A DNA stretch of 64,000 nucleotides from a virus. Taxonomy: Duplodnaviria; Caudoviricetes. Positions 906 to 12,428 of this stretch are shown here, piece after piece (within the stretch, counting starts at the first letter, position 1; every line of letters begins with the position of its first letter). The DNA is taken from positions 128,001 through 192,000 of the IMG/VR virus record IMGVR_UViG_3300037424_000485; one strand, written 5' to 3'. The notes below the pieces were generated by a model, which saw only the letters and a program-made list of their open reading frames with translations, was not told the DNA's origin and ran no database searches. A program made the translations under genes and the position numbers.

Positions 906-1142
906 TCATAACAACCATCTAAGCTTGTATACTATGGATATTATGCCCTCCACACATTGGAGGGCGCGGGATCATCACTGCCCATTCCACCCATCATCTT
1001 TTATATGGTCGAGGATAGACACACTACCGTCTGGATTCTTCAAGGCTACAGATCCTGTCTGTATATCATATACAACACCCTACACTTTTCGGCACAACTT
1101 ATTCATCATGCTATTCATACTATTACCAACTTCTACATTCAT
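906..1142 (-). pseudogene. small gene interrupted by an in-frame TAG
   Basis: GAGGAG RBS then MNVEVGNSMNSMMNKLCRKV*GVVYDIQTGSVALKNPDG...; TAG at 1082-1080 with the frame open afterwards to TGA 908-906. Confidence 0.45.
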
Positions 1143-1227
1143 TTTAAATCTCCTCTACATTTTTGATTAATAAAAACACATATTGTTTATACGTGTATGG
1201 TGTTATATTTTACTCTTTGTAAACAAC

Positions 1228-1494
1228 TCATTTATTAAGATCGGAGAGTTGATATTCTCCACTAGCAATCTTAGCGGCAGTTTCTTTCTTATTCTCACCA
1301 AGAAAGTAATTGCGATACTTGCCAGTGGTGACAGAATATCCCCAATATCTCTCATCAAGGGTAATAAGGCCCATATGACGCTTTGCAATGATGCTTTCAT
1401 AGCTCTGGAAATACTCAGCACCATCATCATCAATAATGATAAACTGGTTGGGTATTTTATTTCCCCTATTGCTAGTCATGTTGGTTACTTTCAT
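1228..1494 (-). CDS. hypothetical phage protein
   Basis: ORF with GGAGG RBS; protein-like composition (NQFII...YFQSYESIIAK). Confidence 0.7.
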   Translation of the reverse strand: MKVTNMTSNRGNKIPNQFIIIDDDGAEYFQSYESIIAKRHMGLITLDERYWGYSVTTGKYRNYFLGENKKETAAKIASGEYQLSDLNK

Positions 1495-1559
1495 TTTGAT
1501 ACCTCCTTTTAAAATAATGATTAATATAGCAGTATGTATATATTATATTGACCAGTATG

Positions 1560-1985
1560 TCAAGGATTATTTCGCATCCCTTGGATGATTTTACTTACAA
1601 CTTGACCATCAACGGCCTTACCAAAATGTTTAGTAACCATACCAACAGCTTGCATCTTGTTTTTCAGAGCACCAAAATCAATATTATCTTTAATGAACTT
1701 GATAACATCTTCTTCAGATACTTTTTCAGGTAAAAGACCATCAAGAATATTAACATATTCAGATGTTGAAGGATCTTCCCCTTTAGCAGTTAGCAATTCA
1801 ATCTCAGATTTCATTAATTTCTCAATAATACTAAGCATTTGAATGTCAGTTGGATGTTCATTTGCTTTGAGATTCAAGCGAGGAATTTCACCAAGGATCA
1901 TTCTTAACGTATCTTTCATAACAACATCTTTTTCTTTCATAGCATTTGTAAGAGATGTTCTTAGCTTCACTTCTAGCTTATTCAT
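1560..1985 (-). CDS. GatB/YqeY-domain protein
   Basis: LTNAMKEKD...TLRMILGEI...KSEIE...ILDGLLP..SEEDV...MQAVGMV pattern typical of YqeY; start refined to MNKLEVK. Confidence 0.8.
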   Translation of the reverse strand: MNKLEVKLRTSLTNAMKEKDVVMKDTLRMILGEIPRLNLKANEHPTDIQMLSIIEKLMKSEIELLTAKGEDPSTSEYVNILDGLLPEKVSEEDVIKFIKDNIDFGALKNKMQAVGMVTKHFGKAVDGQVVSKIIQGMRNNP

Positions 1986-2086
1986 TTTTAAATCCTTTTT
2001 ATCATTGTTATGTCTTATCATATCTAAGGGTATAACCCCTTCGTTAATTCTAAAATATATCAATGATTATTTTTGTAATTAAAATT

Positions 2087-2161
2087 TGGTATCCCTACCA
2101 AGAATCGAACTTGGATCACAGCCTTATAAGGACTACGCACTAACCGTTGTGCTATAGGGAT
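2087..2161 (-). tRNA. tRNA-Ile(TAT)
   Basis: Full cloverleaf, anticodon loop CT-TAT-AA, TTCGATT T-loop, encoded CCA. Confidence 0.85.
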
Positions 2162-2225
2162 ATTAAGTTGAATGGATCATATATGACCCTTAACACTATG
2201 TTAGTGGTTTTTATATGAACTAAAA

Positions 2226-2304
2226 TGGTAGGGGCAAAGGGGGTCGAACCCTCACTGGATGGATTTTAAATCCACTATCTCTGCCACAATTGGATTATAC
2301 CCCC
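2226..2304 (-). tRNA. tRNA-Leu(TAA)
   Basis: Anticodon arm GTGGA-TT TAA AA-TCCAT, TTCGA T-loop, CCA end. Confidence 0.8.
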
Positions 2305-2312
2305 ATATTATT

Positions 2313-2606
2313 TTACAGCTTTGAAGCTGTCTTTAATGTGCGTGTCCTAAAAAACCCATCAAATTCAGGTACTTCCAATACAAGCAATCTAGCATATCTA
2401 CTAGTGTAGTTATTATTCAATTTAAAACCATCTTCACTAATAGTTTCAAAACTAATATGCCATCTAACCCTTTCAAATATTGCCTTTGCAGAGTATGTAT
2501 CAAAACCTCTTCTTTTTACTTCTTCTGCAAATCGTTTGAATGCTTTAAAAACAATAGGATTGTTTTTATGATATTCCCAAAATTTAGCATCAATCACATC
2601 CGACAT
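2313..2606 (-). CDS. hypothetical phage protein
   Basis: ORF between tRNAs; FWEYHKNNP..F...YSAKAIFERVRW motif typical of small phage proteins. Confidence 0.7.
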   Translation of the reverse strand: MSDVIDAKFWEYHKNNPIVFKAFKRFAEEVKRRGFDTYSAKAIFERVRWHISFETISEDGFKLNNNYTSRYARLLVLEVPEFDGFFRTRTLKTASKL

Positions 2607-2632
2607 ATTTTCCTCATCTGTTATTGTTTTAA

Positions 2633-2707
2633 TGGTGCGCCTACTAGGAATCGAACCTAGATAGTCTATTTAGAAGACAGATGCACTATCCATTGTACTA
2701 TAGACGC
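2633..2707 (-). tRNA. tRNA-Arg(TCT)
   Basis: Cloverleaf, TCTGT-CT TCT AA-ATAGA anticodon arm, CCA end. Confidence 0.85.
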
Positions 2708-2715
2708 ATATAATT

Positions 2716-2789
2716 TTGAGCACCAGAAGGTAATCGAAACTTCGTATTCTGTATGTAAAACAGACATTCTTCCATTGAACTAAGGGAGC
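2716..2789 (-). pseudogene. degenerate tRNA-Val(TAC)
   Basis: D arm and TCTGT-TT TAC AT-ACAGA arm intact; acceptor and T stems mismatched; ends CAA. Confidence 0.5.
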
Positions 2790-3116
2790 ATATACTACTT
2801 ATCTGTTTTGGATTTGAACCAAAACCCCCACGTTGCGGATTTACGCTTACCATAATTAAGTCAGAATCGAACTGACAACTACCCAAGACATGGTGTACTA
2901 ACCAATTATACGACCAGAATATTTATTTTATTATACCTCTTATAAAACAGCCAGTATACCAAAAGCTAAGAACCATAATACCCCAACTTTCTGTTTGAGA
3001 GGATGCTAGGATATCCTCAAAGCCCATCGGGTTACGGCAAATGACACCGGGAGACTTCAGTTCTGTCTTGATTAAAGTGAGTGAACTAAGCGTTTCCTAC
3101 AATGCTCACTATATTT

Positions 3117-3192
3117 TGGAAGCGGGTATCGGAACTGCCCCGATCTTATACTTGGTTATGAGCCAAGGAAGACACTATGCCTACCACCCGCA
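3117..3192 (-). tRNA. tRNA-Met(CAT), initiator-like
   Basis: CTTGG-CT CAT AA-CCAAG arm; 1:72 mismatch as in fMet tRNAs; non-canonical T-loop; CCA end. Confidence 0.75.
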
Positions 3193-3200
3193 ATACCTTC

Positions 3201-3347
3201 TTATTTATCTACAATATCTTCAAGAGGTTTGTAACATTCATAACATACCATAACTACCTTGGATGCGTCAAGCTGCTTTTGAATATCTTTTTCTTCATCA
3301 GAAGACATACTAAGATCGATATCTTTACCACATGAATAGCACTTCAT
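3201..3347 (-). CDS. 48-aa CxxC...CxxC small protein (below ORF-track cutoff)
   Basis: MKCYSCGKDID...MVCYECYKPLEDIVDK*. Confidence 0.55.
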   Translation of the reverse strand: MKCYSCGKDIDLSMSSDEEKDIQKQLDASKVVMVCYECYKPLEDIVDK

Positions 3348-3445
3348 TTTACACACCCCATAGATTCATCATTGCCAACAGTTCAAAATGAACCATCTAC
3401 CCTAATTAAAATATATATTAATCCTTTCATATCATGATATTAAAA

Positions 3446-3524
3446 TGGAGCGGATAGGAGGTAACGATCCCCTTGTGTATGGTTGGAAACCACATGTCCC
3501 ACCTAGGAACTCAACTCTATCCGC
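3446..3524 (-). tRNA. tRNA-Gly(TCC)
   Basis: GCGGATA/TATCCGC acceptor, TT TCC AA loop, CCA end; atypical D and T arms. Confidence 0.7.
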
Positions 3525-3527
3525 GCA

Positions 3528-3758
3528 TTATTCATCTACAGTAAAAAACTCACAGCAAGGATATTTTCTCCCCTGCTCATCAAATGGTTCTGTTCCGTCT
3601 TCTTCTTGATTACAGGAACAACCCCTTGGCACACAATAATCACAATAGTAATCATTATGTTGTATACCGCCATAACTTGGCATATATAACCAAGTTCCTT
3701 TATTACCACAATTACAATACCCTACAAGCTCACCAGTAGCTATTTCCATACCTGCCAT
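3528..3758 (-). CDS. Cys-rich hypothetical protein
   Basis: ORF; CNCG...YYCDYCVPRGCSCN...YPCCEF pattern. Confidence 0.65.
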   Translation of the reverse strand: MAGMEIATGELVGYCNCGNKGTWLYMPSYGGIQHNDYYCDYCVPRGCSCNQEEDGTEPFDEQGRKYPCCEFFTVDE

Positions 3759-3789
3759 ACAATAACCTTATAAGATATTAAAACGCGCC

Positions 3790-3965
3790 CAACTCATGTT
3801 AATTATACAGTCGGTATGCCTACCAAAGACTGATCCGCTATACATTTAGGGAGCAGGGTACAGCAATGAGCTAGATCAAATTTAAGGGGATTTTCACCCC
3901 CACTCTCTTTACATAGGCTTACAGATGGTTATGCATCCCCATTACTTCCCTATGCCGTGATCTAA
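3790..3965 (-). ncRNA. candidate structured ncRNA of unknown class
   Basis: Nested helices TAGATCA/TGATCTA, GCATAGG/CCTATGT, GGGG-TGAAAAT-CCCC, GCTCAT/ATGAGT, CAGTC/GACTG enclosing GGTA-GGCA-TACC; GC-rich, no ORF. Confidence 0.55.
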
Positions 3966-3981
3966 GAGTAAGACCATGTTT

Positions 3982-4056
3982 TGGCGACCTAGAAGGGATG
4001 TGCGCCCTCACTGTACACGCTGACAACGTGCTGCACTACTATTATGCTACTAGGCC
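3982..4056 (-). tRNA. tRNA-Asp(GTC)
   Basis: GCACG-TT GTC AG-CGTGT arm, CCA end, non-canonical T-loop CGCACAT. Confidence 0.8.
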
Positions 4057-4064
4057 ATATTCTT

Positions 4065-4745
4065 TTATACTTTAGATATCATCAGTTCTGCTTTTTCAAT
4101 AACAGCATTAACAACATCATATGCAGCATTATATTTAATACTATTCTTACGTCCAGCCTGTTTTGCCAGAATTTCCAGCATAATAGATCGTCCGTTTCCA
4201 TAGGGAAGTTTACCTTCCCTTAATCCTTTTGCTACTGAGGAACGAAAACCTCCATTCCCATCTTCAAGTGTATCAGCGATAGACCCCAACAGAGAAATAA
4301 CGGGAGCTAATGCTTCTTGTTTGATCTTCTGATCATCAGCCCATTTCTTCTCAGTAAGCTCATAGTCAGTCAGGCCATCATTTTTTTCTCTCTGAGCTTG
4401 TAACTTTTCTTCACGTTCTTTATTACGCTTCTCTTCACGAAGCTTTCTATCTCTAGCAAGCTTTATTTCATGCACAACACTGGTAAGACCATCATCACCA
4501 GATTTCTTAACACACTCAGATCCAACGGTAAAGAGCTTTCCATTGGCATCTTTAATAATATAATGAATACTCAAAGCAGTATAACAATACTTACATGAAC
4601 CAACGGTAAAGGGAAGATTTTTAAGCATTTCATTCCAGTTTTCTGGATAATTAGCCATCCATTCTCTTGAAGGCATTTCCCAAATCCCATTAACTTTAAA
4701 GGGTGCTTTGCCAAGTCCTTCTACTTCCCATTTATGAATGCTCAT
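4065..4745 (-). CDS. hypothetical phage protein with a CxxC/H/C zinc site
   Basis: ORF; LGKAPF...SCKYC...IHY...VGSECV; promoter upstream. Confidence 0.75.
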   Translation of the reverse strand: MSIHKWEVEGLGKAPFKVNGIWEMPSREWMANYPENWNEMLKNLPFTVGSCKYCYTALSIHYIIKDANGKLFTVGSECVKKSGDDGLTSVVHEIKLARDRKLREEKRNKEREEKLQAQREKNDGLTDYELTEKKWADDQKIKQEALAPVISLLGSIADTLEDGNGGFRSSVAKGLREGKLPYGNGRSIMLEILAKQAGRKNSIKYNAAYDVVNAVIEKAELMISKV

Positions 4746-4779
4746 ATCATAACCTCTGGTTAATTTTGATTATGATATA

Positions 4780-4807
4780 TATTACAACTTTTCTTTAACC
4801 TTGTCAA
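4780..4807 (-). promoter_or_regulatory. sigma70-like promoter
   Basis: TTGACA-17 nt-TAATAT upstream of 4065..4745. Confidence 0.5.
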
Positions 4808-4828
4808 GAAAATAATATTAATTAATTT

Positions 4829-4902
4829 TGGCATACCGTAAAGGTGACGCTCCCTTGTTTTCTGGTTTGGAATAAGATGTTCTACTGTTGAACTAACGAT
4901 CT
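4829..4902 (-). tRNA. tRNA-Trp(CCA), partly degenerate
   Basis: TT CCA AA loop and CCA end; two mismatches in the anticodon stem. Confidence 0.55.
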
Positions 4903-4911
4903 GTACATTTT

Positions 4912-4985
4912 TGGTAGTGGTAAGTGGAATCGAACCACTATCTCAACCTTATCAGGATTGCCCTTTACCGTTAAGGCATACCACT
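4912..4985 (-). tRNA. tRNA-Ile(GAT)
   Basis: Canonical cloverleaf, CT GAT AA loop, CCA end. Confidence 0.9.
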
Positions 4986-4995
4986 ATTTAATTTT

Positions 4996-5081
4996 TGGTG
5001 GGCCAGGTAGGATTCGAACCTACACACCATCGAAGATAAGAGCTTCTAAGACTCCCGTGTCTACCGTTACACCACTGGCCC
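4996..5081 (-). tRNA. tRNA-Leu(TAG)
   Basis: Canonical cloverleaf with long variable arm, CT TAG AA loop, CCA end. Confidence 0.9.
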
Positions 5082-5130
5082 ATAATTATTTCATATCCCA
5101 CGTGGGATAAACCGCCATATTTTATTAAAA

Positions 5131-5291
5131 GATTGAACAGGCAGGAGTCGAACCTGCATATCAGGATTACGTTAGGCTGTTACCTGAAAAGTGGTTTGGC
5201 CCATGAGCCTAGAAGATGTCGTTTCCGTTTCATCCCCATCCATATTGGTTTGCCCCACACTCCCCTATACCAGTTCGGGTACAATTCAATC
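5131..5291 (-). ncRNA. tRNA-like RNA whose anticodon arm is replaced by a multi-helix domain
   Basis: 8-bp acceptor GATTGAAT/GTTCAATC, D-like arm GTACC/GGTAT, T arm GCAGG-TTCGACT-CCTGC, variable arm TCAGG/CCTGA, about 85-nt structured insert. Confidence 0.6.
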
Positions 5292-5456
5292 TTTATTTCT
5301 TTTATCTTATCCATAACCTACGGACAATGTTTCTTCCAATCCATTTATTCATACTACGTTTGAATATAGGAATTAATGACCCTTTCATTAGAGATCTAAC
5401 AATAGCTCTAATGTCATTGTTTATAATATTTAGTTTAAAAAGAGTCATTTTATTCC

Positions 5457-5660
5457 TTATGCCTCATGGTAAATTTCTAGTTTCCGTTGGATAGTTTCGT
5501 AAGACTCAGAACAGTAAAAAGGCTCATCTGAACCAGCTACAAAAACGGAACACTTTTCAACATCTAGCTCATGGATGGCAACTATATAGGATGTTAAAAT
5601 GGATAATTTCTTGCCATTATGGTTTGTAAATAGTTGTTTCTGCATAACAATACACTCCAT
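5457..5660 (-). CDS. hypothetical protein
   Basis: ORF; FlbD-like spacing (IVAI...CSVFVAG...YCSESYETI). Confidence 0.55.
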   Translation of the reverse strand: MECIVMQKQLFTNHNGKKLSILTSYIVAIHELDVEKCSVFVAGSDEPFYCSESYETIQRKLEIYHEA

Positions 5661-5746
5661 ATCCCTTTACCAATTTGGACAATATTAAATCAATTAACAC
5701 TATCTATGCACTGTAACATAACCTATGTTTAAAAGCAATAGTTATG

Positions 5747-6799
5747 TTACAGATTTATATATTTATCAAAGAACCATTTCCTACCCTTATTAGAGATAGC
5801 ACTTGTGACATCTTTAACAATAAGGCCACTAGCAATTAGAGTATCTACCTCTTCTTTCATTACATCTGTAACAACCCATTTCAGAAACTTACCCGTATTG
5901 GATACATCAGGAGTAATGTTATTGGCTTCAAATATATCTCTTATCCCCTGCTCAAGCCTGTTCTCTGTTACTGCGTAATCAACAAACTCTTTAACGGATG
6001 CCAATTTCTCAGGATCGATAGGAGCGAGGCACTTTACCTTAGATCCTGAATGCTTTTCGCCCTTAACTTTAAAACGAAACATATTGCCATTGATATTAGA
6101 AGACCAAACTGCACCCTCACCAATAATAGAACCATTTTCCGAGGTGGCCCCTAACTTTTTAGCAACAGGACATTCTCTTTCTATCTCATTGGTGATATCA
6201 ATTAACTCATTCTGAGATAATTTGGGATCGTTAAGATCTACCTCTATATTATATGTCCCAAAATAATCAATATGGAACATTCTGATATCATGGTATTTCT
6301 CTACATAAAAATCAAACCAATTTGTTTCTTTTTCATTCTCATCAAGTGGGTTAATTGTATGTTTAACACCAAAGATAACAAACATCTTTTCTAATTGGGA
6401 TACACCAACACCACCTGTAATGCCTTTTCCACACCATTCGCCATATATAGAAACAACACCTTCAGTAAGATCATACGCTTTAACGAGCAGGCTGAACAAT
6501 TCTTTAAAAACAACCTTGTTTTTCTCAACGTAACATGCAAAGCCTTTGTTATCATCGGGAATAGTTATAATCCTTTCTCTGGATTGTACCCACATATCAC
6601 CAGTGGTAATATCAAAACATACCCCTGCATTTGTGCCATGGATTTTTACTCTACCTGTGAAATTAATTACAGGGAGTATTTTGTTGTAATCATATATGAC
6701 TTTTCCTTTATCATCCTTGCCATTATATCTAAGGTGATCTACAAGACCCCTTACAGCAGACCCATACACACTTATGGATGGAAATTTAATACAATTCAT
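5747..6799 (-). CDS. RNA ligase, Rnl2-like nucleotidyltransferase
   Basis: Motif I VKIHGTN, IYGEWCG (motif III), GEGAVW (motif IV), FKVKG (motif V); start refined to MNCIKF. Confidence 0.85.
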   Translation of the reverse strand: MNCIKFPSISVYGSAVRGLVDHLRYNGKDDKGKVIYDYNKILPVINFTGRVKIHGTNAGVCFDITTGDMWVQSRERIITIPDDNKGFACYVEKNKVVFKELFSLLVKAYDLTEGVVSIYGEWCGKGITGGVGVSQLEKMFVIFGVKHTINPLDENEKETNWFDFYVEKYHDIRMFHIDYFGTYNIEVDLNDPKLSQNELIDITNEIERECPVAKKLGATSENGSIIGEGAVWSSNINGNMFRFKVKGEKHSGSKVKCLAPIDPEKLASVKEFVDYAVTENRLEQGIRDIFEANNITPDVSNTGKFLKWVVTDVMKEEVDTLIASGLIVKDVTSAISNKGRKWFFDKYINL

Positions 6800-7011
6800 T
6801 ACAATACCTCGTCTATACAATTATGGCTCATGTCATCTTGATGCCAAGCTCTACATTTTGAACATTTTATGCATCTACCAACCGCAACATCCATTTGCTT
6901 ATTATATTTTACAGATAATCCTATATATATCGCAAATAGTATGAATAAAATAGATACTGCCCATACTATAATACCTGTCACTGTACAGATGTCGGTTAGA
7001 ATTGTCAACAT
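6799..7011 (-). CDS. hypothetical membrane protein
   Basis: ORF with an N-terminal hydrophobic helix; TAATG coupling to the ligase. Confidence 0.55.
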   Translation of the reverse strand: MLTILTDICTVTGIIVWAVSILFILFAIYIGLSVKYNKQMDVAVGRCIKCSKCRAWHQDDMSHNCIDEVL

Positions 7012-7019
7012 TTAATTAC

Positions 7020-7235
7020 CTATTTTACAAGTTTCTTACCATCAACAGCCAGGATATCTACATTGCCTGTATAGGTATCAATTTCTACATCAAATTTTAC
7101 TTCATATAATGCATACGAGAATTCTCTTTTTACATCATTTGAGAGCGAAAGACCATATTCGTCTTCAATACTATTAATAAAACTATAATTCTCATCTTTA
7201 CTGCTATGACAATACATAACTGATTTAATTTTCAT
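7020..7235 (-). CDS. hypothetical protein
   Basis: ORF in tandem minus-strand array. Confidence 0.65.
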   Translation of the reverse strand: MKIKSVMYCHSSKDENYSFINSIEDEYGLSLSNDVKREFSYALYEVKFDVEIDTYTGNVDILAVDGKKLVK

Positions 7236-7328
7236 TTCGAATTCACATTTTCCTTAATTAACATTTAGCCGATCTTAATAGATCGTTACCAACATACGCT
7301 ACGTGGAAGCAGTTAATTATTATATGTT

Positions 7329-7400
7329 TCGGAATGAGAGGGGTCGAACCTCTGATCTCTAGTTCCCAAAACTAGCGGCATACCACTTGCCTACACCCCG
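7329..7400 (-). tRNA. tRNA-Pro(TGG)
   Basis: CGGGGTG/CATTCCG acceptor, CTAGT-TT TGG GA-ACTAG arm; CCA not encoded. Confidence 0.85.
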
Positions 7401-7409
7401 GTATAATTT

Positions 7410-7748
7410 TTACCAGTAGAACCAACCAGCATCTTTAATCCATTTATCAAATGAATAACCATCATAATCCATATGACGTAAGACACGTGAAGTCTCTACT
7501 TTATCTTTTGCACGTCTTTCACGATTTAACATCCGTGTATAGGACTTTGGCGCATGGCCATCCCATCCATAACCACTTTTAGTTTCTCTATGGTACTTTG
7601 AAACAGTGTATTTATCATCTCTAATTGAACAATTTCTTGAACAATGAATACCAAAACACCGATCATTAACACATTGCTCTATGCGATAACAATATGTTTC
7701 TAAAATTTGGTCGTTAGTGACCTTTTTTCTTCTGTATGTTCTTGACAT
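7410..7748 (-). CDS. hypothetical phage protein
   Basis: ORF with AGGAG RBS; MSRTYRRK basic start. Confidence 0.7.
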   Translation of the reverse strand: MSRTYRRKKVTNDQILETYCYRIEQCVNDRCFGIHCSRNCSIRDDKYTVSKYHRETKSGYGWDGHAPKSYTRMLNRERRAKDKVETSRVLRHMDYDGYSFDKWIKDAGWFYW

Positions 7749-7839
7749 TTTGAATCTCCTATATATGTATAATTACATATTCGAGTATCAAAATTATTAT
7801 AAATTGTTTTCATTATATTTTTCCTTACATTTTAAAAAT

Positions 7840-7913
7840 TGGGAGGCCCGGATGGTTACGCTCCATCGTTGATCGGTTAAAAGCCGAATATTCTACTATT
7901 AAATTACGAACCC
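7840..7913 (-). tRNA. tRNA-Lys(TTT)
   Basis: TTCGG-CT TTT AA-CCGAT arm, CCA end, T-loop AGCGTAA. Confidence 0.85.
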
Positions 7914-7957
7914 ATACATTTCTTACTAGCATGGATTCATAATTCATCCATACTTTA

Positions 7958-8098
7958 TTATTTACCTTGACCTCTTGACTTCTTTTTCTTAGCACTCTTG
8001 CTCTTGAGGTTGGTATTTTCACTATTACCGATTGAAGTTTTCTTCTTACGGCTAATATCTGATTTTTTTGTTGTTGATGCTGTCTTCGTCTTTGCCAT
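7958..8098 (-). CDS. 46-aa basic protein ending RGQGK (not in ORF track)
   Basis: MAKTKTASTTKKSDISRKKKTSIGNS...KKKKSRGQGK*; AAGGGA RBS. Confidence 0.6.
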   Translation of the reverse strand: MAKTKTASTTKKSDISRKKKTSIGNSENTNLKSKSAKKKKSRGQGK

Positions 8099-8169
8099 TT
8101 TAATTCCCTTATTATAACGTTAAATTAATAGTATATTTTACTTCTGACTTTGTGTCAACTTATATTTAC

Positions 8170-8500
8170 CATATATATAATATACCACACTGTTAGCCTT
8201 CGCTATTGAGCAGGGTATCAGCTTCATCCCGCTCGTCAACCGACAAATGGCTGTAATGGTTCCAGCCGGAGTAGGTATTAAACCAATGACACATCCAGGT
8301 TTTCCCTTGGCACCGCATACAGGATCTTGCATCAACTCCGTCACAGGTCGGACAGCCTTTTTCCAGATATGGAATACAACTATAATTTCTTAGCTACTTT
8401 ATCAACACTTCTCAGGAACCACCCTGTCAGTTTATATCAATTTTGCCAACGGTAACTTACTAGATTCAACTGGTTAGGTGTCCTCTCTCAGTAACCTTAA
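8170..8500 (-). ncRNA. candidate large structured ncRNA
   Basis: Many helices: CAGG/CCTG, GACAG/CTGTC, TTCCA/TGGAA, CGGAGT/ACTCCG, GAAA-capped hairpin, GGCTG/CAGCC, GAGC/GCTC, TAGC-GAAG-GCTA; GC-rich relative to the genome. Confidence 0.6.
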
Positions 8501-8504
8501 ATTT

Positions 8505-8587
8505 GTGAATAGGGTTGGAGTCTAACCAACTAACCTAATTACGGATTTAGGTAAATCTACATGTTATCCTAAGGTTCATGTAATCAC
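8505..8587 (-). pseudogene. tRNA relic with a shrunken anticodon loop
   Basis: Acceptor GTGATTA/TATTCAC, CATG/CATG D stem, GATTT-ACCT-AAATC, T arm GTTGG-TTAGACT-CCAAC; no CCA. Confidence 0.4.
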
Positions 8588-8597
8588 TATATTCTTT

Positions 8598-8684
8598 TGG
8601 AAGAAGATGGAGGTATCGCGCCCCTACGTTTTACCGTACCCTAGGGTTCAAGCCTAGTTTGTAATAACTTTTACGGCACCTTCC
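8598..8684 (-). tRNA. tRNA-Ser(TGA)
   Basis: CTAGG-CT TGA AC-CCTAG arm, long variable arm, CCA end. Confidence 0.8.
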
Positions 8685-8769
8685 TAACAATCAATTAAAG
8701 GACACGAATATTATCTACCCTTCGTTATTTAAGATTAGTCGGTTGGCAGACTAATCTCCTAAAAACTTC

Positions 8770-8847
8770 TGGTGCGCCTGATAGGAATCGAACCCATGCA
8801 AATCCCAACTCTTCAGGATGGTGCTCTTCCAACTGAGCTACAGACGC
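8770..8847 (-). tRNA. tRNA-Phe(GAA)
   Basis: GCTCAGTTGGAAGAGC D arm, CT GAA GA loop, TTCGATT, CCA end. Confidence 0.8.
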
Positions 8848-9014
8848 ATATACTTTAAAAACAGAATGTAGGAATCGAACCTACCAATTCGGGATCATAC
8901 CCCGATATAAACCAATAATCCAACTTATTTAAAATATTAACTAGTATCAATATTAAATGTTGGTGGTCACTAGTGTACTAGCATGTTACCATAACATCTT
9001 TTCTGCTTTAATTC

Positions 9015-9104
9015 TGGTGGGGGCGCATAGAATCGAACTATCCCGGCAGCCACCTACTTTGTTTTACCGAATGGTTTTACAGACCACTTGTAGGAAACGA
9101 CCCC
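9015..9104 (-). tRNA. atypical tRNA-Tyr(GTA) lacking a D arm
   Basis: GTGGT-CT GTA AA-ACCAT arm, T arm ATAG-TTCGATT-CTAT, ACCA end; CCTAC pairs with GTAGG in the variable region. Confidence 0.6.
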
Positions 9105-9118
9105 ATAATCTTTAAAAA

Positions 9119-9236
9119 TGGAATAATAAGAAGTCCATAGAGTCTCCCAACTCTAATTCGCACCTGGGAGAAGATACCGATCTAACCGACTAAGCCCTAT
9201 TCGTAGGGAATTATCTTCAGACCTCTTCTTATATCC
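9119..9236 (-). ncRNA. candidate CCA-ended branched ncRNA
   Basis: Terminal stem GGATATAAGAAG/CTTCTTATTATTCC-A, internal GAAGATA/TATCTTC, CCCTA-CGAA-TAGGG, TCCCA/TGGGA. Confidence 0.5.
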
Positions 9237-9436
9237 AAAAAGCTATATAGTGGTATAGCCAATTGATGAAATTGTTCACCTCACTATACAATTTAATTCA
9301 AAATTATTTGGCTTTTGTTCTCAGAAGTACCATAACTCCTACAACTGGATTATCCAGAAGATTTTAATTAGTTATTCCGTCAACTACCATGTATCATTAA
9401 ATTCTTTATCTACTATACTTTAACTATTTTATAATG

Positions 9437-9703
9437 TCAAGCTATAATTTTACATTTATCATCAGGATATATATAAATTATATGATCCTTATTAACCATC
9501 AATATCTCAGCAGTTATATCATCATTTTTTACATTTGTCAGTATAATAAATTGTTTATTATACGAGTTGAGCCAATCACTTAACCTAGCTCCTTTTTTTA
9601 CATTAACACAGGCACAAAACTCATTCTCTATATTAGTAATCTTAACAGATACTGATATCATATCGACTGTATTTTTCTCATAATCTATAATATTAGCCAT
9701 CAT
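9437..9703 (-). CDS. hypothetical protein
   Basis: ORF; RLSDWLN...FIILTNV...VNKDHI pattern of a small beta-rich bacterial family. Confidence 0.65.
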   Translation of the reverse strand: MMANIIDYEKNTVDMISVSVKITNIENEFCACVNVKKGARLSDWLNSYNKQFIILTNVKNDDITAEILMVNKDHIIYIYPDDKCKIIA

Positions 9704-9756
9704 CTACCTATTTTGTTAATGATATCAACTTTTTTTAAAAAAATTTAAAATAAATA

Positions 9757-9795
9757 AGATGCCCATTCTAATCGTCATCAAAATGGGCATCTTTT
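9757..9795. terminator. intrinsic terminator-like hairpin
   Basis: AAGATGCCCATT...AATGGGCATCTTTT. Confidence 0.55.
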
Positions 9796-9847
9796 GTGTA
9801 TAATCCAGGATACAAAAATCTATTGTTTTATATCCAACACCATGCCT

Positions 9848-10004
9848 TGATGCACCGTCCTCTAACGCTGTGAGGTATTATGCGGTATCATCACTTTTAT
9901 GTCTAGAAGCCTTCTATATCGTGTGATCATCACTCACACATGGGGAATACCCATAATTTTGGCGACCACCTAGTTTCCCGATATGAATATAGTTTCTATG
10001 ACAT
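9848..10004 (-). ncRNA. candidate two-domain structured ncRNA
   Basis: ATGTC(A)TAGAA/TTCTAGACAT, ATATCG/CGATAT, ATGGG/CCCAT, TGTGA/TCACA; second domain TGATG/CATCA, ACCG/CGGT, CCTC/GAGG. Confidence 0.55.
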
Positions 10005-10053
10005 TTTTACTACTAGTATAGTACATTATTTGTTTATTCTCTTATTATATTAT

Positions 10054-10082
10054 ATTATATAATAAGTAGTCAGAGGTGTCTA
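10054..10082 (-). promoter_or_regulatory. sigma70-like promoter upstream of the ncRNA
   Basis: TAGACA-17 nt-TATAAT. Confidence 0.55.
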
Positions 10083-10157
10083 GACATAATCTACTCCTTA
10101 TTGGTTGAATATGGATTTAGGGTTTCTTCTCAACATCTTCTGCAACTCTATAATTAC

Positions 10158-10186
10158 ATCTTACTCTATTTGATTTAGGATGTCAA
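10158..10186 (-). promoter_or_regulatory. sigma70-like promoter
   Basis: TTGACA-17 nt-TAAGAT preceded by an A-tract (UP-like). Confidence 0.55.
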
Positions 10187-10191
10187 CTTTT

Positions 10192-10614
10192 TTATAGTTT
10201 AGATCCGCAAATCTTACAAAAACCTTTTCCATTATCCGCAATCGGTCTTTTGCACTTGACACAGTTAGTCTTAATCACTCGTTCTGGTGTCTTTTTTACC
10301 TTCTCAACAACTACAGGCTCGACTACAGGCTCAACTACAGGCTCGACTACAGGCTCAACTACAGGCTCGACTACAGGCTCAACTACAGGCTCGACTACAG
10401 GCTCGACTACAGGCTCAACTACAGGCTCAACTACAGGCTCAACTACAGGCTCGATATATTTCTTCTTAGAAGATTTCTTTTTCTTCTTAGAAGATTTATC
10501 AACATCCATTTCTTCTACTCTACCAACAACAATATCCATTTCTTCAATATCAACTGTTGTGTTATTCTCAAGGCCGAGATTATTCTCATCCTCTTCTTTT
10601 TTATACCATGTCAT
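10192..10614 (-). CDS. acidic/basic protein with (EPVV)12 and C-terminal CxxC-CxxC
   Basis: ORF with AGGAGG RBS and TATAAATA upstream. Confidence 0.75.
   Translation of the reverse strand: MTWYKKEEDENNLGLENNTTVDIEEMDIVVGRVEEMDVDKSSKKKKKSSKKKYIEPVVEPVVEPVVEPVVEPVVEPVVEPVVEPVVEPVVEPVVEPVVEPVVVEKVKKTPERVIKTNCVKCKRPIADNGKGFCKICGSKL
10309..10452. repeat. 12-bp tandem repeat x12 (RACTACAGGCTC)
   Basis: Counted directly; encodes EPVV. Confidence 0.95.
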
Positions 10615-10647
10615 AATTTTTTCCTCCTATAGATAAAATACTACTAT

Positions 10648-10655
10648 TATTTATA
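10648..10655 (-). promoter_or_regulatory. T4-type late promoter TATAAATA
   Basis: Exact octamer upstream of the RBS; same octamer upstream of genes at 13629-36, 19245-52, 37641-48, 45645-64, 49804-11, 55617-24, 61741-48; gp55 homologue in window. Confidence 0.65.
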
Positions 10656-10768
10656 AGAGAGTGAAAATTATTATATCAACTTTTCTTTAAATCTTTCATG
10701 ATCCCAATGTCTATATATCTACATAATCAAGAAAAAGAACTTCAATAACAATCACCTTTATTTTTAAC

Positions 10769-10844
10769 TGGAAGCCGGGGAGGGGATAGAACCCTCAACA
10801 CTCAGGTTCAAAACCTGATGCTCTACCAATTGAACTACCCGGCT
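10769..10844 (-). tRNA. tRNA-Gln(TTG)
   Basis: TCAGG-TT TTG AA-CCTGA arm, CCA end. Confidence 0.85.
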
Positions 10845-11028
10845 ATTTTTTATACTTCTCCACTAAACTATCAGCATGGTCTAAAGAAGCATATTCACCA
10901 CAAAGACATATACCAACTGAGTGATCACATCCTTCACCAGATCCCTCATGGTATAATTTTATAATTTCCATAAGATCTTCAATACACTCCACAAGCTCAT
11001 GCTGTATTTTATTCTTATTCATATTCAT
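10843..11028 (-). CDS. hypothetical protein
   Basis: ORF with GAGG RBS; CDHSVGICLC. Confidence 0.55.
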   Translation of the reverse strand: MNMNKNKIQHELVECIEDLMEIIKLYHEGSGEGCDHSVGICLCGEYASLDHADSLVEKYKK

Positions 11029-11154
11029 AACACCTCACATTACATTTTAAATAAGTCTTCCGGCACTATGGATATGCCCATATAAGCCATAACTTCTGAT
11101 ATATTATTTACTATATGGTATTTAATATCATATTCAATCATGCCATCCAACACC

Positions 11155-11343
11155 CTACACCCTACCATAATATCTACAATATATTAATTTTTTATCCAAA
11201 CTTAATATCAGATAAGGTGAATCTGAGGTATGTGATATATTAGTATCCTCGAACCGCCATCTAAAACCAATCTTAAACAATTCTTTTTGAATATATACAG
11301 ACTGCATTTCACAGTGTATAGGTATAGCTAAATTATTTATCAT
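11155..11343 (-). CDS. hypothetical protein
   Basis: ORF; TTGACT promoter-like motif upstream. Confidence 0.5.
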   Translation of the reverse strand: MINNLAIPIHCEMQSVYIQKELFKIGFRWRFEDTNISHTSDSPYLILSLDKKLIYCRYYGRV

Positions 11344-11386
11344 ATCTGATAATATACAACTATTTTAAATATAGTCAAGAAAAAAA

Positions 11387-11420
11387 TAAAAGGGTTGGAA
11401 GAAAACTCCATAACCCTTTT
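11387..11420. terminator. terminator downstream of the SSB gene
   Basis: AAAAGGGTT...AACCCTTTT inverted repeat. Confidence 0.6.
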
Positions 11421-11447
11421 AAACAACATAATTAAAACAATAAGATA

Positions 11448-12428
11448 TTATCCAAGCATTTTATCTAGCTCATCAAGAATATCATCATCATCACCAGCAT
11501 CACCAGCATCACCAGCATCACCAGCATCATCATCTTCCTTAATCTCTGCTTTCTTCTCTGCTTTCTTTTTCTCTTGTTTAGGAGGATCAAAATTTACATC
11601 ATCCTTCTCTTCTTTTTCTACCTTAGCTGAAAATCTTTTATTAAATTCATTTTCAACATCATCCCATACCATCTCTTCTCTGAGAAGTTTTTTATGCTCA
11701 TCTGGTGAAAGCTCAAGACTCTTAATATATTCCTCAAGAGATATACGAGATGCCATAAGCTCTTCAAGCTCTTTGTCAGAACCTGCAATAGAAGACGGTT
11801 TACGTGCAAACATAGAAGGAGTATAGTCAGGCCATACCTTTTGATTTGCATCTGGTTTCTTAGCTTCTATTTTTAACAAGAAGTTAAAACCATCTTCTTC
11901 TGGACTAAAAATTAACTGACCGTATCCGTTTTTCTTATCTGTAATTTCAGATTTGAACATCTTCTCAACTGTGGGTGGAAATTCATATAGTCTAACAGTT
12001 TTATTTACTTTACGGGCATCATCTGTCTGTTCTGTATCTCTGGGATCATTAAGAATGAATACGTTAGATACATACTTTTGCTTGCGTTTGTAATCGTTTC
12101 CTTTTTTCTTATCAGAGGCGGTTCCTTTATACAGAATCTGTGCAATCTGACACCATGGGCAATAACAATCTAAACCATGTGTTTTTGGACAAAGAAAGAA
12201 CATCCATTTTTCCCCAACTAGGAACATATGATAGAAATAGCCTTTATAACCACTACCGTCTGTATCAGGAAGAAGTCTGAATTCATACTCTTTTGGTTTT
12301 CCTACACTACCCATTGTAGGTGAGATCCACTTCTTATAAAAGGTTTGGTTCTCGGTGCTTGAATCTTGTTCTGTTGATTTTTGTTCATCCCATTGTTTAA
12401 ATTTTTTGTTGTCTAGCCATTTACTCAT
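11448..12428 (-). CDS. gp32: T4 gp32-like single-stranded DNA-binding protein
   Basis: FRLLP, HMF...CPKTHG..CYCPWC zinc site, KRKQKYVSNVFILNDP, acidic C-terminal tail with (DAG)4. Confidence 0.85.
   Translation of the reverse strand: MSKWLDNKKFKQWDEQKSTEQDSSTENQTFYKKWISPTMGSVGKPKEYEFRLLPDTDGSGYKGYFYHMFLVGEKWMFFLCPKTHGLDCYCPWCQIAQILYKGTASDKKKGNDYKRKQKYVSNVFILNDPRDTEQTDDARKVNKTVRLYEFPPTVEKMFKSEITDKKNGYGQLIFSPEEDGFNFLLKIEAKKPDANQKVWPDYTPSMFARKPSSIAGSDKELEELMASRISLEEYIKSLELSPDEHKKLLREEMVWDDVENEFNKRFSAKVEKEEKDDVNFDPPKQEKKKAEKKAEIKEDDDAGDAGDAGDAGDDDDILDELDKMLG

What the first reader, a model, noticed from the sequence alone, without database searches (positions are those of the whole stretch)
1560..10844. 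RNA island: tRNAs, tRNA mimics, unassigned structured RNAs, an RNA ligase and YqeY in one co-oriented block
Seen: about 15 tRNA genes, at least 5 relics and at least 5 non-tRNA structured RNAs (3790-3965, 5131-5291, 8170-8500, 9119-9236, 9848-10004), with an Rnl2-type ligase in the middle and YqeY at the end, fed by several sigma70-like promoters. Known: phage RNA ligases and tRNAs counter anticodon-nuclease defences (T4 Rnl1/Pnk versus PrrC). Inference: this may be a translation-protection system in which tRNA-shaped RNAs act as decoys or ligase substrates and are released by the same RNase P/RNase Z-type processing as the tRNAs.
Basis: partly seen in the sequence, partly recalled or inferred. 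Interest (0 to 1): 0.78.

Follow-up and report, generated by a model that had tools for sequence, protein, structure and literature searches.

The report
Phage tRNA island with uncatalogued RNAs
This 9-kb stretch of a large sediment phage is a tRNA gene island of a known kind. It holds an RNA-sealing enzyme, a self-cutting ribozyme that trims one tRNA, and several folded RNAs of unknown job, one of which belongs to a knotted, tRNA-shaped RNA family found in about twenty unrelated phages and absent from the RNA catalogue.

Summary
The block is real. It lies on the minus strand of a 204-kb T4-like phage from sediment. It holds 11 tRNAs above Rfam's threshold, about 6 non-canonical tRNA-shaped genes, several tRNA fragments, a distant Rnl2-type RNA ligase and YqeY.

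It starts exactly after the discriminator of tRNA-Pro, the only strong tRNA without an encoded CCA. This scan has seen that arrangement before on other DNA.

Of the five "non-tRNA" RNAs:
- 5131-5291 is a member of a pseudoknotted, tRNA-elbow RNA family with no Rfam match. I collected 20 distinct copies, with compensatory changes in 23 of 29 pairs.
- 9119-9236 and the 5' third of 8170-8500 are conserved in the only close relative.
- 3790-3965 and 9848-10004 have no comparative support.

Elsewhere the genome encodes RtcB, a CCA-adding enzyme with an HD domain, and Ro60 beside a Y-RNA-like hairpin.

The general reading, tRNA supply plus RNA repair against tRNA-cutting defences, is already the published view for jumbo phages. 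The specific decoy or ligase-substrate idea is unsupported, because the conserved RNA also occurs in phages with no RNA ligase. Function remains unknown and expression could not be tested.

The parts
10772..10844 (-). tRNA-Gln(UUG), CCA encoded; upstream end of the island
   Evidence: Rfam 63.7 bits; ARAGORN; CCA
9745..10190 (-). Promoter-to-terminator unit with no plausible ORF.
   Evidence: TTGACA-17-TAAGAT at 10186 and a 17-bp terminator at 9793-9756. No minus-strand ORF longer than 23 aa between them. Fold z -2.2. No homologue found.
9437..9703 (-). Small protein gene, DUF6812
   Evidence: Pfam PF20660, E 3e-11
9119..9236 (-). Conserved four-helix RNA (terminal stem, P2 enclosing hairpin H1, hairpin H2 with a GCGAA-containing loop); lineage-specific, function unknown
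   Evidence: Matches L014 363-474, z 4.9 against shuffles. The common architecture lies within 0.1 and 1.0 kcal/mol of the optimum in both sequences, and P2, H1 and H2 have different sequences.
9016..9104 (-). Non-canonical tRNA-Tyr(GUA)-like gene: 7-bp acceptor, A73, encoded CCA and T arm, no D arm, and a long anticodon arm with loop CUGUAAA
   Evidence: 80% identical to L014 464-573. 95.8% of cells pair and 3 pairs show compensatory change. Weak tRNA-Sec model hit, 25 bits. No other Tyr tRNA in either island.
8773..8847 (-). tRNA-Phe(GAA), CCA encoded. Flanked by the weak tRNA-like 8924-8860 and the Ser(UGA)-like 8684-8598.
8385..8500 (-).
   Evidence: blastn match to L014 1337-1385. Local alignment z 8.7. 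RNAalifold gives 23 pairs, 7 of them with changes on both sides, from two effective sequences.
8170..8384 (-). Remainder of that stretch: a decayed tRNA-like module closed by CGGAGT/ACTCCG, plus hairpins; not shown to be conserved
   Evidence: Reading. In the alignment to L014 the counterpart is an odd tRNA-like gene. Fold z for the whole stretch is -0.3.
7843..7913 (-). tRNA-Lys(UUU), CCA encoded
   Evidence: Rfam 44.1 bits
7329..7400 (-). tRNA-Pro(UGG), no encoded CCA
   Evidence: Rfam 62.1 bits; the next bases are AACATA
7255..7328 (-). HDV-like (theta-type) self-cleaving ribozyme. P1 is 7328-7322 with 7297-7291. P2 is 7319-7312 with 7262-7255. L3 is UCCACGU. P4 is CGAUC/GAUCG. The candidate catalytic C is at 7268.
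   Evidence: RF02682, 40.8 bits, full-length alignment. E 3e-7 and the only hit in the 204-kb genome. It starts at the base after A73 of tRNA-Pro.
5747..6769 (-). ATP-dependent RNA ligase, distant Rnl2 type (340 aa)
   Evidence: PF09414 and phrog_548, E 9e-57. Profile hit to T4 Rnl2 2HVQ over residues 36-329. Best fold matches are 2HVQ and 2HVR. K42, H44, G45, E111, E218, K234 and K236 are invariant.
5127..5294 (-). Pseudoknotted tRNA-elbow RNA: core 5283-5138 plus a 10-bp closing helix. It has a D arm, T arm, two variable hairpins and a 5-bp pseudoknot. It belongs to a family with no Rfam match.
   Evidence: 76.8% identity to an unannotated gap in the tRNA array of Synechococcus phage S-CRM01. 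6-sequence alignment: 100% paired, 19 of 29 pairs compensatory. 20 sequences: 94.8% paired, 23 of 29 compensatory. Closing helix. No Rfam hit.
4832..5081 (-). tRNA-Leu(UAG), tRNA-Ile(GAU) and a weak Trp(CCA)-like tRNA, all with CCA encoded
3985..4056 (-). tRNA-Asp(GUC) with an unusual T loop, CCA encoded
   Evidence: Rfam 47.2 bits
3790..3965 (-). Candidate structured RNA, unverified
   Evidence: GC 0.43; fold z -1.1; no homologue
2799..3516 (-). Gly(UCC)-like 3516-3447 and Met(CAU)-like 3192-3117 tRNA-shaped genes, a small ORF, and tRNA fragments 3042-2799
   Evidence: ARAGORN at relaxed threshold only; sequences
2090..2789 (-). tRNA-Val (no CCA), tRNA-Arg, a 97-aa phrog_13625 protein, tRNA-Leu(UAA) and tRNA-Ile(UAU)
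1560..2063 (-). YqeY (GatB_Yqey-type) protein; downstream end of the island
   Evidence: PF09424, E 7e-11; phrog_1460

Best explanation
The block is the tRNA and RNA-maintenance island of a T4-like jumbo phage. That is a known kind of locus, and this one carries some RNAs that no catalogue lists.

Inferred transcription and processing: early sigma-70-type promoters drive polycistronic precursors. These carry tRNAs, tRNA-shaped RNAs, small ORFs and other folded RNAs. Host RNase P and 3' processing enzymes cut them out.

Shown: most tRNAs encode their own CCA. tRNA-Pro does not. An HDV-like ribozyme fused to its 3' end is placed to cut exactly after A73.

Inferred from family knowledge: the cut leaves a 2',3'-cyclic phosphate. 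The phage's own CCA-adding enzyme, which carries an HD phosphohydrolase domain, could then heal that end and add CCA.

Shown to be present, with activity inferred from the families: the Rnl2-type ligase inside the island, RtcB just downstream and Ro60 elsewhere give the phage the means to reseal or clear tRNAs cut by host anticodon nucleases. The phage tRNAs replace lost ones.

The non-tRNA RNAs are the counterpart of the small stable RNAs of the T4 tRNA cluster (species 1 and 2). The one at 5127-5294 is a phage-restricted RNA that keeps a tRNA-like D-loop/T-loop elbow on a long closing helix and replaces the anticodon arm with a pseudoknotted domain. My best guess for it is a tRNA-elbow mimic that engages some factor that reads tRNA shape. 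Which factor is unknown.
For: - tRNAs, ribozyme and proteins.
- Nine of the 11 firm tRNAs encode CCA. tRNA-Pro does not, and the ribozyme's first base follows its discriminator.
- Kienbeck et al. 2024 report that only 4.5% of theta-associated tRNAs encode CCA, and that CCA-adding enzymes are enriched 250-fold in such phages (PMC10879173). This genome has such an enzyme with an HD domain.
- The ligase is Rnl2-like by profile and by fold. RtcB and Ro60 are present.
- Published synthesis of the same gene set in jumbo phages: PMC7824862.
- The same layout, a ligase embedded in a co-oriented tRNA array, recurs in L014 (19 tRNAs by ARAGORN; ligase 57% identical) and in L029 (31 tRNAs; 32% identical).
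- The RNA family at 5127-5294. Eleven of 20 other copies have a tRNA within 1 kb.
- T4 species 1 RNA folds with a T arm and a closing stem around large inserts.
Against: - No expression data were available for any element.
- The ribozyme scores 40.8 bits, below Rfam's gathering score of 44. It starts with A1-U rather than the usual G at the cleavage site, so its activity is not assured.
- Thermodynamic z-scores of the unassigned RNAs are weak, -0.3 to -2.2.
- Only one close relative exists for most of the island. Covariation for 9119-9236, 8385-8500 and the Tyr-like gene therefore rests on two sequences.
- Many tRNA-shaped genes score poorly and may be decaying rather than functional.
- No polynucleotide kinase-phosphatase was identified to prepare ends for an Rnl2-type ligase. 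Only an AAA_33/zeta-like kinase was found.
Confidence: 0.75

Rival explanations
1. First reader's model. The tRNA-shaped RNAs are decoys for host anticodon nucleases, or dedicated substrates of the island's ligase, and together form a translation-protection system.
For: - tRNA-shaped RNAs sit beside an Rnl2-type ligase, with RtcB 3 kb downstream.
- The Tyr-like RNA keeps a perfectly conserved anticodon stem-loop, A73 and CCA, as a decoy or a nuclease-resistant replacement would.
- Three carriers of the 5127-5294 family have a PF09414 ligase: this phage, L029 and the 277-kb genome behind L049.
Against: - Two complete genomes with the 5127-5294 RNA, S-CRM01 and GP100, have no PF09414 ligase, no RtcB and no Ro60.
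- That RNA has no anticodon loop and no free acceptor end.
- No test here bears on cleavage or ligation.
Confidence: 0.15
2. One or more of the unassigned RNAs (5127-5294 or 9119-9236) is a Y RNA that partners the phage's Ro60. The long terminal helix would bind Ro60 and the tRNA-like module would recruit an effector, as in bacterial Yrn1 and YrlA.
For: - The genome encodes Ro60 (TROVE plus vWA_Ro60).
- The closest relative carries a YrlA-like RNA inside its tRNA island (L014 5216-5345).
- 5127-5294 has a long closing helix with D and T arms. Chen et al. describe Yrn1 as differing from YrlA in the order of these arms (PMC4201824).
- The hairpin loop in 9119-9236 and its L014 homologue shares GCGAA. 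A CGAA motif is used to spot phage Y RNAs (PMC12135203).
Against: - The Rfam YrlA model finds nothing real in the island. Its only hit is an artefact spanning two adjacent tRNAs.
- The motif GGCGTAG...CGATT, shared by the L014 Y RNAs, occurs in this genome only beside the Ro60 gene and not in the island.
- Five other carriers of the 5127-5294 family have no TROVE gene.
Confidence: 0.1
3. Much of the 'extra' RNA is debris. The low-scoring tRNA-shaped genes, the fragments, 3790-3965, 9848-10004 and 8170-8384 would be decaying tRNA genes and spacers with no function of their own.
For: - The relative L014 has 19 well-scoring tRNAs by ARAGORN where this phage has many sub-threshold ones (against 4, 16).
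- Clear fragments with half a cloverleaf are present.
- These stretches have no homologue and weak fold z-scores.
Against: - Five of the odd tRNA-shaped genes keep a paired acceptor stem and an encoded CCA.
- The Tyr-like one is 80% identical to its L014 counterpart, although the ligase proteins are only 57% identical.
- 9745-10190 has its own promoter and a strong terminator.
Confidence: 0.3

Closest known systems
Small stable RNAs of the phage T4 tRNA cluster (species 1 = rnaC, species 2 = rnaD)
   Same: They are non-coding RNAs of 120-140 nt, co-transcribed with phage tRNAs, and their function is unknown. T4 species 1 folds with a T arm and a closing stem around large inserts. That is the same general plan as 5127-5294.
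   Different: There is no sequence similarity, and my model R2 does not hit the T4 tRNA region except at tRNA-Leu. The family here has a covarying pseudoknot and a D arm, and it is found in other phage groups.
Theta ribozymes: minimal HDV-like ribozymes at the 3' end of phage tRNAs (Kienbeck et al. 2024, PMC10879173; Rfam RF02682)
   Same: It has the nested double-pseudoknot layout. The cut site abuts the tRNA 3' end. The tRNA lacks CCA, and the phage encodes a CCA-adding enzyme.
   Different: The source is a sediment T4-like jumbo phage, not a gut phage. The partner is tRNA-Pro, not Met, suppressor or Leu. The first base is A rather than G. The score is just under Rfam's threshold. The phage ligase is Rnl2-type, not the DRB0094 family that the paper found enriched.
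Jumbo-phage RNA-repair gene sets (Iyer et al. 2021, PMC7824862)
   Same: The set combines many tRNAs with RtcB, an Rnl2-family ligase, a TROVE/Ro protein and a CCA-adding enzyme.
   Different: Here the ligase is embedded in the tRNA array itself. That paper does not describe the RNAs between the tRNAs.
Bacterial and phage Y RNAs (YrlA, Yrn1) that mimic tRNA and bind Ro60 (Chen et al. 2014, PMC4201824)
   Same: They have a tRNA-like D/T elbow on a long terminal helix. Ro60 is present in this genome, and a YrlA-like RNA sits in the relative's island.
   Different: There is no match to the YrlA model. No Ro-binding motif was seen in the island RNAs. Most carriers of the 5127-5294 family lack Ro60.
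T4 RNA ligase 2 (Rnl2; PDB 2HVQ)
   Same: It has the same two-domain layout and motif residues, and T4 Rnl2 is the best profile and fold match.
   Different: Identity is only about 19%. The NCBIfam equivalog score is 27 bits against a cut-off of 197. It belongs to a separate clade, phrog_548.

Membership tests
tRNA (Rfam RF00005) | Cloverleaf scoring at or above the 29-bit gathering score | tested here: met
   11 hits from 38 to 66 bits. Six further tRNA-shaped genes fall below the score.
Theta / HDV-like ribozyme | Nested double pseudoknot (P1, P1.1, P2, P3, P4) with a C in J4/2 | tested here: met
   Full-length alignment to RF02682. P1 has 7 bp, P2 8 bp, P3 3 bp, L3 is UCCACGU, GG is available for P1.1, P4 has 5 bp, and GCUAA provides C7268 (and reading).
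Theta / HDV-like ribozyme | Rfam gathering score (44 bits) | tested here: not met
   40.8 bits. E is 7e-5 over 11 kb against all families and 3e-7 over the genome for this family alone.
Theta / HDV-like ribozyme | Cleavage site within 1 nt of a tRNA 3' end, and a tRNA without CCA | tested here: met
   The ribozyme starts at 7328 and the tRNA-Pro discriminator is at 7329. No CCA follows.
Theta / HDV-like ribozyme | Self-cleavage that depends on the catalytic C | not testable with these tools
   Needs in vitro transcription of 7400-7255 with and without C7268U.
Rnl2-family RNA ligase | Nucleotidyltransferase motifs, including the motif I lysine and the motif V lysines | tested here: met
   K42, H44, G45, E111, E218, G219, K234 and K236 are invariant in 32 homologues. 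They align with the T4 Rnl2 profile match.
Rnl2-family RNA ligase | C-terminal helical domain of Rnl2 type | tested here: met
   The profile match covers residues 36-329 of 2HVQ. The model has helices at 253-338. Foldseek aligns 322 columns to full-length Rnl2.
Rnl2-family RNA ligase | NCBIfam TIGR02307 equivalog cut-off (197 bits) | tested here: not met
   27 bits: a distant relative, not an equivalog.
DRB0094-family RNA ligase (enriched with theta ribozymes) | Match to the family model | tested here: not met
   The NCBIfam scan lists only TIGR02307.
YqeY | Pfam PF09424 above the gathering score | tested here: met
   42.9 bits against 27.
YrlA / Y RNA | Match to RF02553, or the shared Ro-side stem motif | tested here: not met
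   The best hit is 15.8 bits across two adjacent tRNAs. The GGCGTAG motif occurs only beside the Ro60 gene, outside the window.
GOLLD / ROOL and other large ornate RNAs | Match to the Rfam models | tested here: not met
   No hit at E up to 10 over 1000-12000.
Pseudoknotted tRNA-elbow RNA family (defined here, model R2) | D arm, T arm, helices b and d, two hairpins and a 5-bp pseudoknot, all maintained by compensatory change | tested here: met
   The window copy scores 156.8 bits. In 20 distinct sequences 94.8% of cells are paired and 23 of 29 pairs are compensatory. The pseudoknot, which is not part of the model, is 86% paired.

The most novel reading that the evidence does not exclude
The RNA at 5127-5294 may represent a new, phage-restricted class of tRNA-elbow mimic. 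It combines a long closing helix, a D/T elbow and a pseudoknotted core. It could act in the conflict over the translation apparatus, for example by sequestering or redirecting a host factor that recognises tRNA shape: a tRNA-targeting defence nuclease, RNase P, a modification enzyme, or Ro60 where present. The lineage-specific RNAs at 9119-9236 and 8385-8500 would then be further members of an unexplored repertoire of phage 'tRNA-operon RNAs'.
Probability: 0.2. Interest if true: 0.8.

Novelty: new variant of a known kind. Interest (0 to 1): 0.55.

Why it matters
Phage tRNA clusters are usually annotated as tRNAs plus "gaps". In this island at least three gaps hold conserved folded RNAs. One of them defines a family with textbook covariation in about twenty large environmental phages and two cultured ones (S-CRM01 and GP100), and it has no Rfam match. 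Because cultured carriers exist, the family can be tested directly.

The function of the small stable RNAs in the T4 tRNA cluster has been open for about fifty years. A second, better-conserved example with a clear tRNA-like elbow offers a new way into that question.

The island also extends theta-type tRNA-trimming ribozymes to a sediment T4-like jumbo phage that carries its own CCA-adding enzyme.

Tried and rejected
- Close relatives. megablast of the island against 50,697 phage records found nothing. A ligase peptide scan of IMG/VR found nothing. Two DNA patterns taken from the lineage-specific RNAs returned only chance hits or nothing in IMG/VR. The single metagenome scan returned only distant ligases of at most 41% identity.
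- The 226-aa island protein leads to unrelated mobile-element contexts.
- P0061, the closest partial ligase, lies on a 2-kb contig with a homing endonuclease and has no RNA context.
- Expression. No RNA holder is listed. Only two DNA runs from sediment metagenomes hold the stretch.
- Model R1 for the Tyr-like RNA found no further members in 214 kb of loci.
- T4. No RNA gap was found beside vs.8 in the reference record, so that lead from earlier notes was not pursued. R2 does not find the family in the T4 tRNA region.
- blastn of 9745-10190 and 3759-3984 against phages found no match.
- The pattern search for the 5127-5294 family in 185,579 prokaryote species genomes gave 12 places, none confirmed by the model.
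- tRNA-with-intron reading of 5131-5291. I could not find an anticodon stem at the borders of the insert, and the family's closing helix is far longer than an acceptor stem. Rejected.
- The region after the Ro60 gene is GC-rich but reads as two small ORFs. I did not take it as RNA.

Full report
**Where it is.** The window is bases 128001-192000 of a 204,431-base IMG/VR virus record, estimated 85% complete. Two sediment metagenome runs hold the stretch. Overall GC is 32%. Every tRNA that the tRNA model finds in the genome lies in this one block, on the minus strand. No cultured phage and no other IMG/VR contig is close to it at the DNA level.

**Checking the observation.**
- Rfam finds 11 tRNAs above its threshold, and ARAGORN at default settings finds 8 of them.
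- Relaxed searches add tRNA-shaped genes in the gaps, on the right strand. Five of them have paired acceptor stems and an encoded CCA: Trp-like 4902-4832, Tyr-like 9104-9016, Ser-like 8684-8598, Met-like 3192-3117 and Gly-like 3516-3447. Clear fragments are also present.
- The count of tRNAs and relics is therefore about right.
- The ligase (PF09414, phrog_548) and YqeY (PF09424) are confirmed.
- Five perfect TTGACA-17-nt promoters lie in intergenic positions, and a 17-bp terminator lies at 9793-9756. The promoter scan as a whole does not exceed shuffled sequence.

Directly after the discriminator of tRNA-Pro (7329) begins a 74-nt match to the HDV-like ribozyme family RF02682. It scores 40.8 bits against a gathering score of 44, is aligned over its full length, and is the only such hit in the genome at E 3e-7.
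- All helices can be placed: P1 with 7 bp, P2 with 8 bp, P3 with 3 bp, L3 UCCACGU, GG for P1.1 and a 5-bp P4. The sequence GCUAA supplies the candidate catalytic C at 7268.
- Nine of the 11 firm tRNAs encode CCA. tRNA-Pro does not.
- This is the arrangement described for theta ribozymes. Only 4.5% of their tRNAs encode CCA, and CCA-adding enzymes are enriched 250-fold in such phages (PMC10879173).
- This genome encodes a CCA-adding enzyme with an HD domain.
- Differences from the published set are the habitat, tRNA-Pro as partner, an A rather than a G as first base, and a ligase that is not of the DRB0094 family.
- Earlier notes of this scan report the same arrangement in other genomes.

**The ligase.**
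- A profile of 32 homologues hits only T4 RNA ligase 2 in the PDB, at E 1.8e-8 over residues 36-329.
- An AlphaFold model with pLDDT 89.7 has full-length Rnl2 as its best fold match, at E 6e-11.
- The motif lysines and glutamates are invariant.
- It scores far below the NCBIfam Rnl2 equivalog cut-off, 27 bits against 197. I call it a distant Rnl2-type enzyme.
- Its nearest relative is 57% identical and lies in 5-6-kb contigs (L014-L016) that form the same kind of island, with 19 ARAGORN tRNAs around the ligase.
- A much more distant homologue, 32% identical, also sits in the middle of a 31-tRNA array in a 318-kb contig, L029.

**The rest of the genome.** Outside the window the phage encodes four relevant genes:
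- RtcB, on the same strand about 3 kb downstream of YqeY.
- Ro60, with TROVE and vWA_Ro60 domains.
- The CCA-adding enzyme.
- An AAA_33/zeta-like kinase.

Just upstream of Ro60 is a hairpin, GGCGTAG...CGATTGTTCC. The same stem, with compensatory changes, occurs twice in L014, once around a permuted tRNA-like module that the YrlA model picks up weakly. The lineage therefore has a Ro60/Y-RNA system, but in this phage the Y-like hairpin is not in the island. The combination of tRNAs, RtcB, Rnl2, TROVE and CCA-adding enzyme is already described as the RNA-repair equipment of jumbo phages (PMC7824862).

**The five unassigned RNAs.** Thermodynamic z-scores are weak, from -0.3 to -2.2, so I relied on comparison.

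1. *5131-5291.* blastn finds a 139-nt match at 76.8% identity in an unannotated gap of the tRNA array of Synechococcus phage S-CRM01, and a shorter match in Pseudomonas phage GP100.
   - Pattern scans of IMG/VR and a covariance model built from six sequences raised the set to 20 distinct sequences, from contigs up to 518 kb.
   - The structure has a 3-bp D stem with a tRNA-type D loop, a T arm with GTTCGA, two long-range helices, two hairpins of free sequence, and a 5-bp pseudoknot between the segment before CUCAUGG and the loop AACAGC..ACGUAA.
   - In the MAFFT alignment of six sequences every one of 173 cells pairs and 19 of 29 pairs show compensatory change. None of 500 shuffles reaches this, and slid controls pair in 34-49% of cells.
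   - In the 20-sequence alignment 94.8% of cells pair and 23 of 29 pairs are compensatory. That alignment was fitted to the nested helices, but the pseudoknot was not in the model and is still 86% paired, with 4 of its 5 pairs covarying.
   - The flanks form a long closing helix, 10 bp here and up to about 19 bp elsewhere. There is therefore no free acceptor end.
   - Eleven of the 20 other copies have a tRNA within 1 kb.
   - No copy was confirmed in prokaryote genomes.
   - No Rfam family matches.
2. *9119-9236.* It is similar to L014 363-474 at the syntenic place, z 4.9. Both sequences fold into the same four helices within about 1 kcal/mol of their optimum, and three of the helices differ in sequence.
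3. *8170-8500.* Only the 5' ~115 nt are conserved, z 8.7, including a 49-nt block at 86% identity. The remainder aligns with an odd tRNA-like gene in L014. It is not one 330-nt RNA.
4. and 5. *3790-3965 and 9848-10004.* No homologue was found anywhere I could look. The second lies in a 400-nt unit with its own promoter and terminator and no ORF, which is suggestive but no more.

In addition, the "relic" at 9104-9016 is 80% identical to its L014 counterpart. It has compensatory changes in the acceptor stem and in the long arm. It keeps A73, CCA and an invariant CUGUAAA loop, and it lacks a D arm. Neither island has another tRNA-Tyr, so it may be the phage's tRNA-Tyr in an unusual shape.

**How it most likely works.**
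- Shown: the gene content, the placement of the ribozyme, and the conservation and structure of the RNAs.
- Inferred from family knowledge: precursors are cut by host RNase P and 3' nucleases. The ribozyme frees tRNA-Pro with a cyclic phosphate, which the HD-domain CCA enzyme can heal and extend. Rnl2-type and RtcB ligases reseal cut tRNAs, and phage tRNAs replace lost ones.
- Not shown: any role for the non-tRNA RNAs.

The decoy or ligase-substrate idea is weakened because S-CRM01 and GP100 carry the 5127-5294 RNA without any PF09414 ligase, RtcB or Ro60. A Y-RNA role is weakened for the same reason, and by the lack of any YrlA match. The closest analogue is the pair of small stable RNAs in the T4 tRNA cluster. 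T4 species 1 also has a T arm and a closing stem around large inserts, and its function is still unknown.

**Verdict.** This is an ordinary kind of locus: a jumbo-phage tRNA and RNA-repair island with a theta-type ribozyme. It contains RNAs that no catalogue lists. One RNA family is firmly established here by covariation, and cultured phages are available to study it. Two more RNAs are conserved only within the lineage, and two remain unverified.

Noticed in passing
outside the window: genome 13098-13150 and 13406-14938 (locus L037 4098-4150 and 4406-5938): The phage encodes Ro60 (TROVE plus vWA_Ro60). Just upstream is a 9-bp hairpin flanked by GGCGTAG and CGATTGTTCC. The same stem occurs twice in the relative L014 with compensatory changes, so it is a likely short Y RNA.
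   Followed up: partly
outside the window: genome 125220-126400 (locus L036 7220-8400, minus strand): The RtcB ligase is read as a 368-aa ORF. The last ~50 residues of the family match fall in a separate 60-aa ORF, which suggests a frameshift, a sequencing error or a small insertion near the C-terminus.
   Followed up: no
outside the window: genome 34268-35716 (locus L038 2268-3716): A 482-aa CCA-adding enzyme with PolyA_pol head, RNA-binding and HD domains. It is a likely partner of the ribozyme-trimmed tRNA-Pro.
   Followed up: partly
window 5094-5109: A perfect 16-nt palindrome, TATCCCACGTGGGATA, lies in the spacer between the pseudoknotted RNA and tRNA-Leu. It could be a hairpin or a protein-binding site.
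   Followed up: no
window 10192-10614 (minus strand): A 140-aa ORF with about 13 tandem copies of the 12-nt unit GAGCCTGTAGT[TC], which encodes (EPVV)n. It ends in a CxxC...CxxC zinc-ribbon-like tail.
   Followed up: no
L014 5216-5345 and 4861-4925: The closest relative's tRNA island holds a YrlA-like Y RNA (a permuted tRNA module on a long stem; Rfam 31 bits) and a short copy of the same stem. L014 1398-1508 looks like an unannotated long tRNA-like gene closed by GGAACAT/ATGTTCC.
   Followed up: partly
L014 1786-2046: An 86-aa HNH endonuclease gene sits directly in front of the ligase. In L035 a NUMOD3 homing-endonuclease gene interrupts a ligase homologue. Ligase genes of this clade seem to attract mobile endonucleases.
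   Followed up: no
outside the window: genome 118176-118976 (locus L036 176-976): About 800 nt of apparently non-coding DNA with GC of 0.45-0.63 in a 32% GC genome. This is the most GC-rich gap of the phage. I did not examine it.
   Followed up: no
L029 1-20969: A 318-kb metagenomic phage contig carries 31 co-oriented tRNAs by ARAGORN, with an Rnl2-type ligase in the middle. It also has a divergent copy of the pseudoknotted RNA at 16678-16819.
   Followed up: partly
window 3985-4056, 3447-3516, 8598-8684: Several tRNA-shaped genes have T loops that lack the usual TTCGA: CGCACAT, ATCGTTA and CGCGATA. The ATCGTT form also occurs in well-scoring tRNAs of the relative L014.
   Followed up: no
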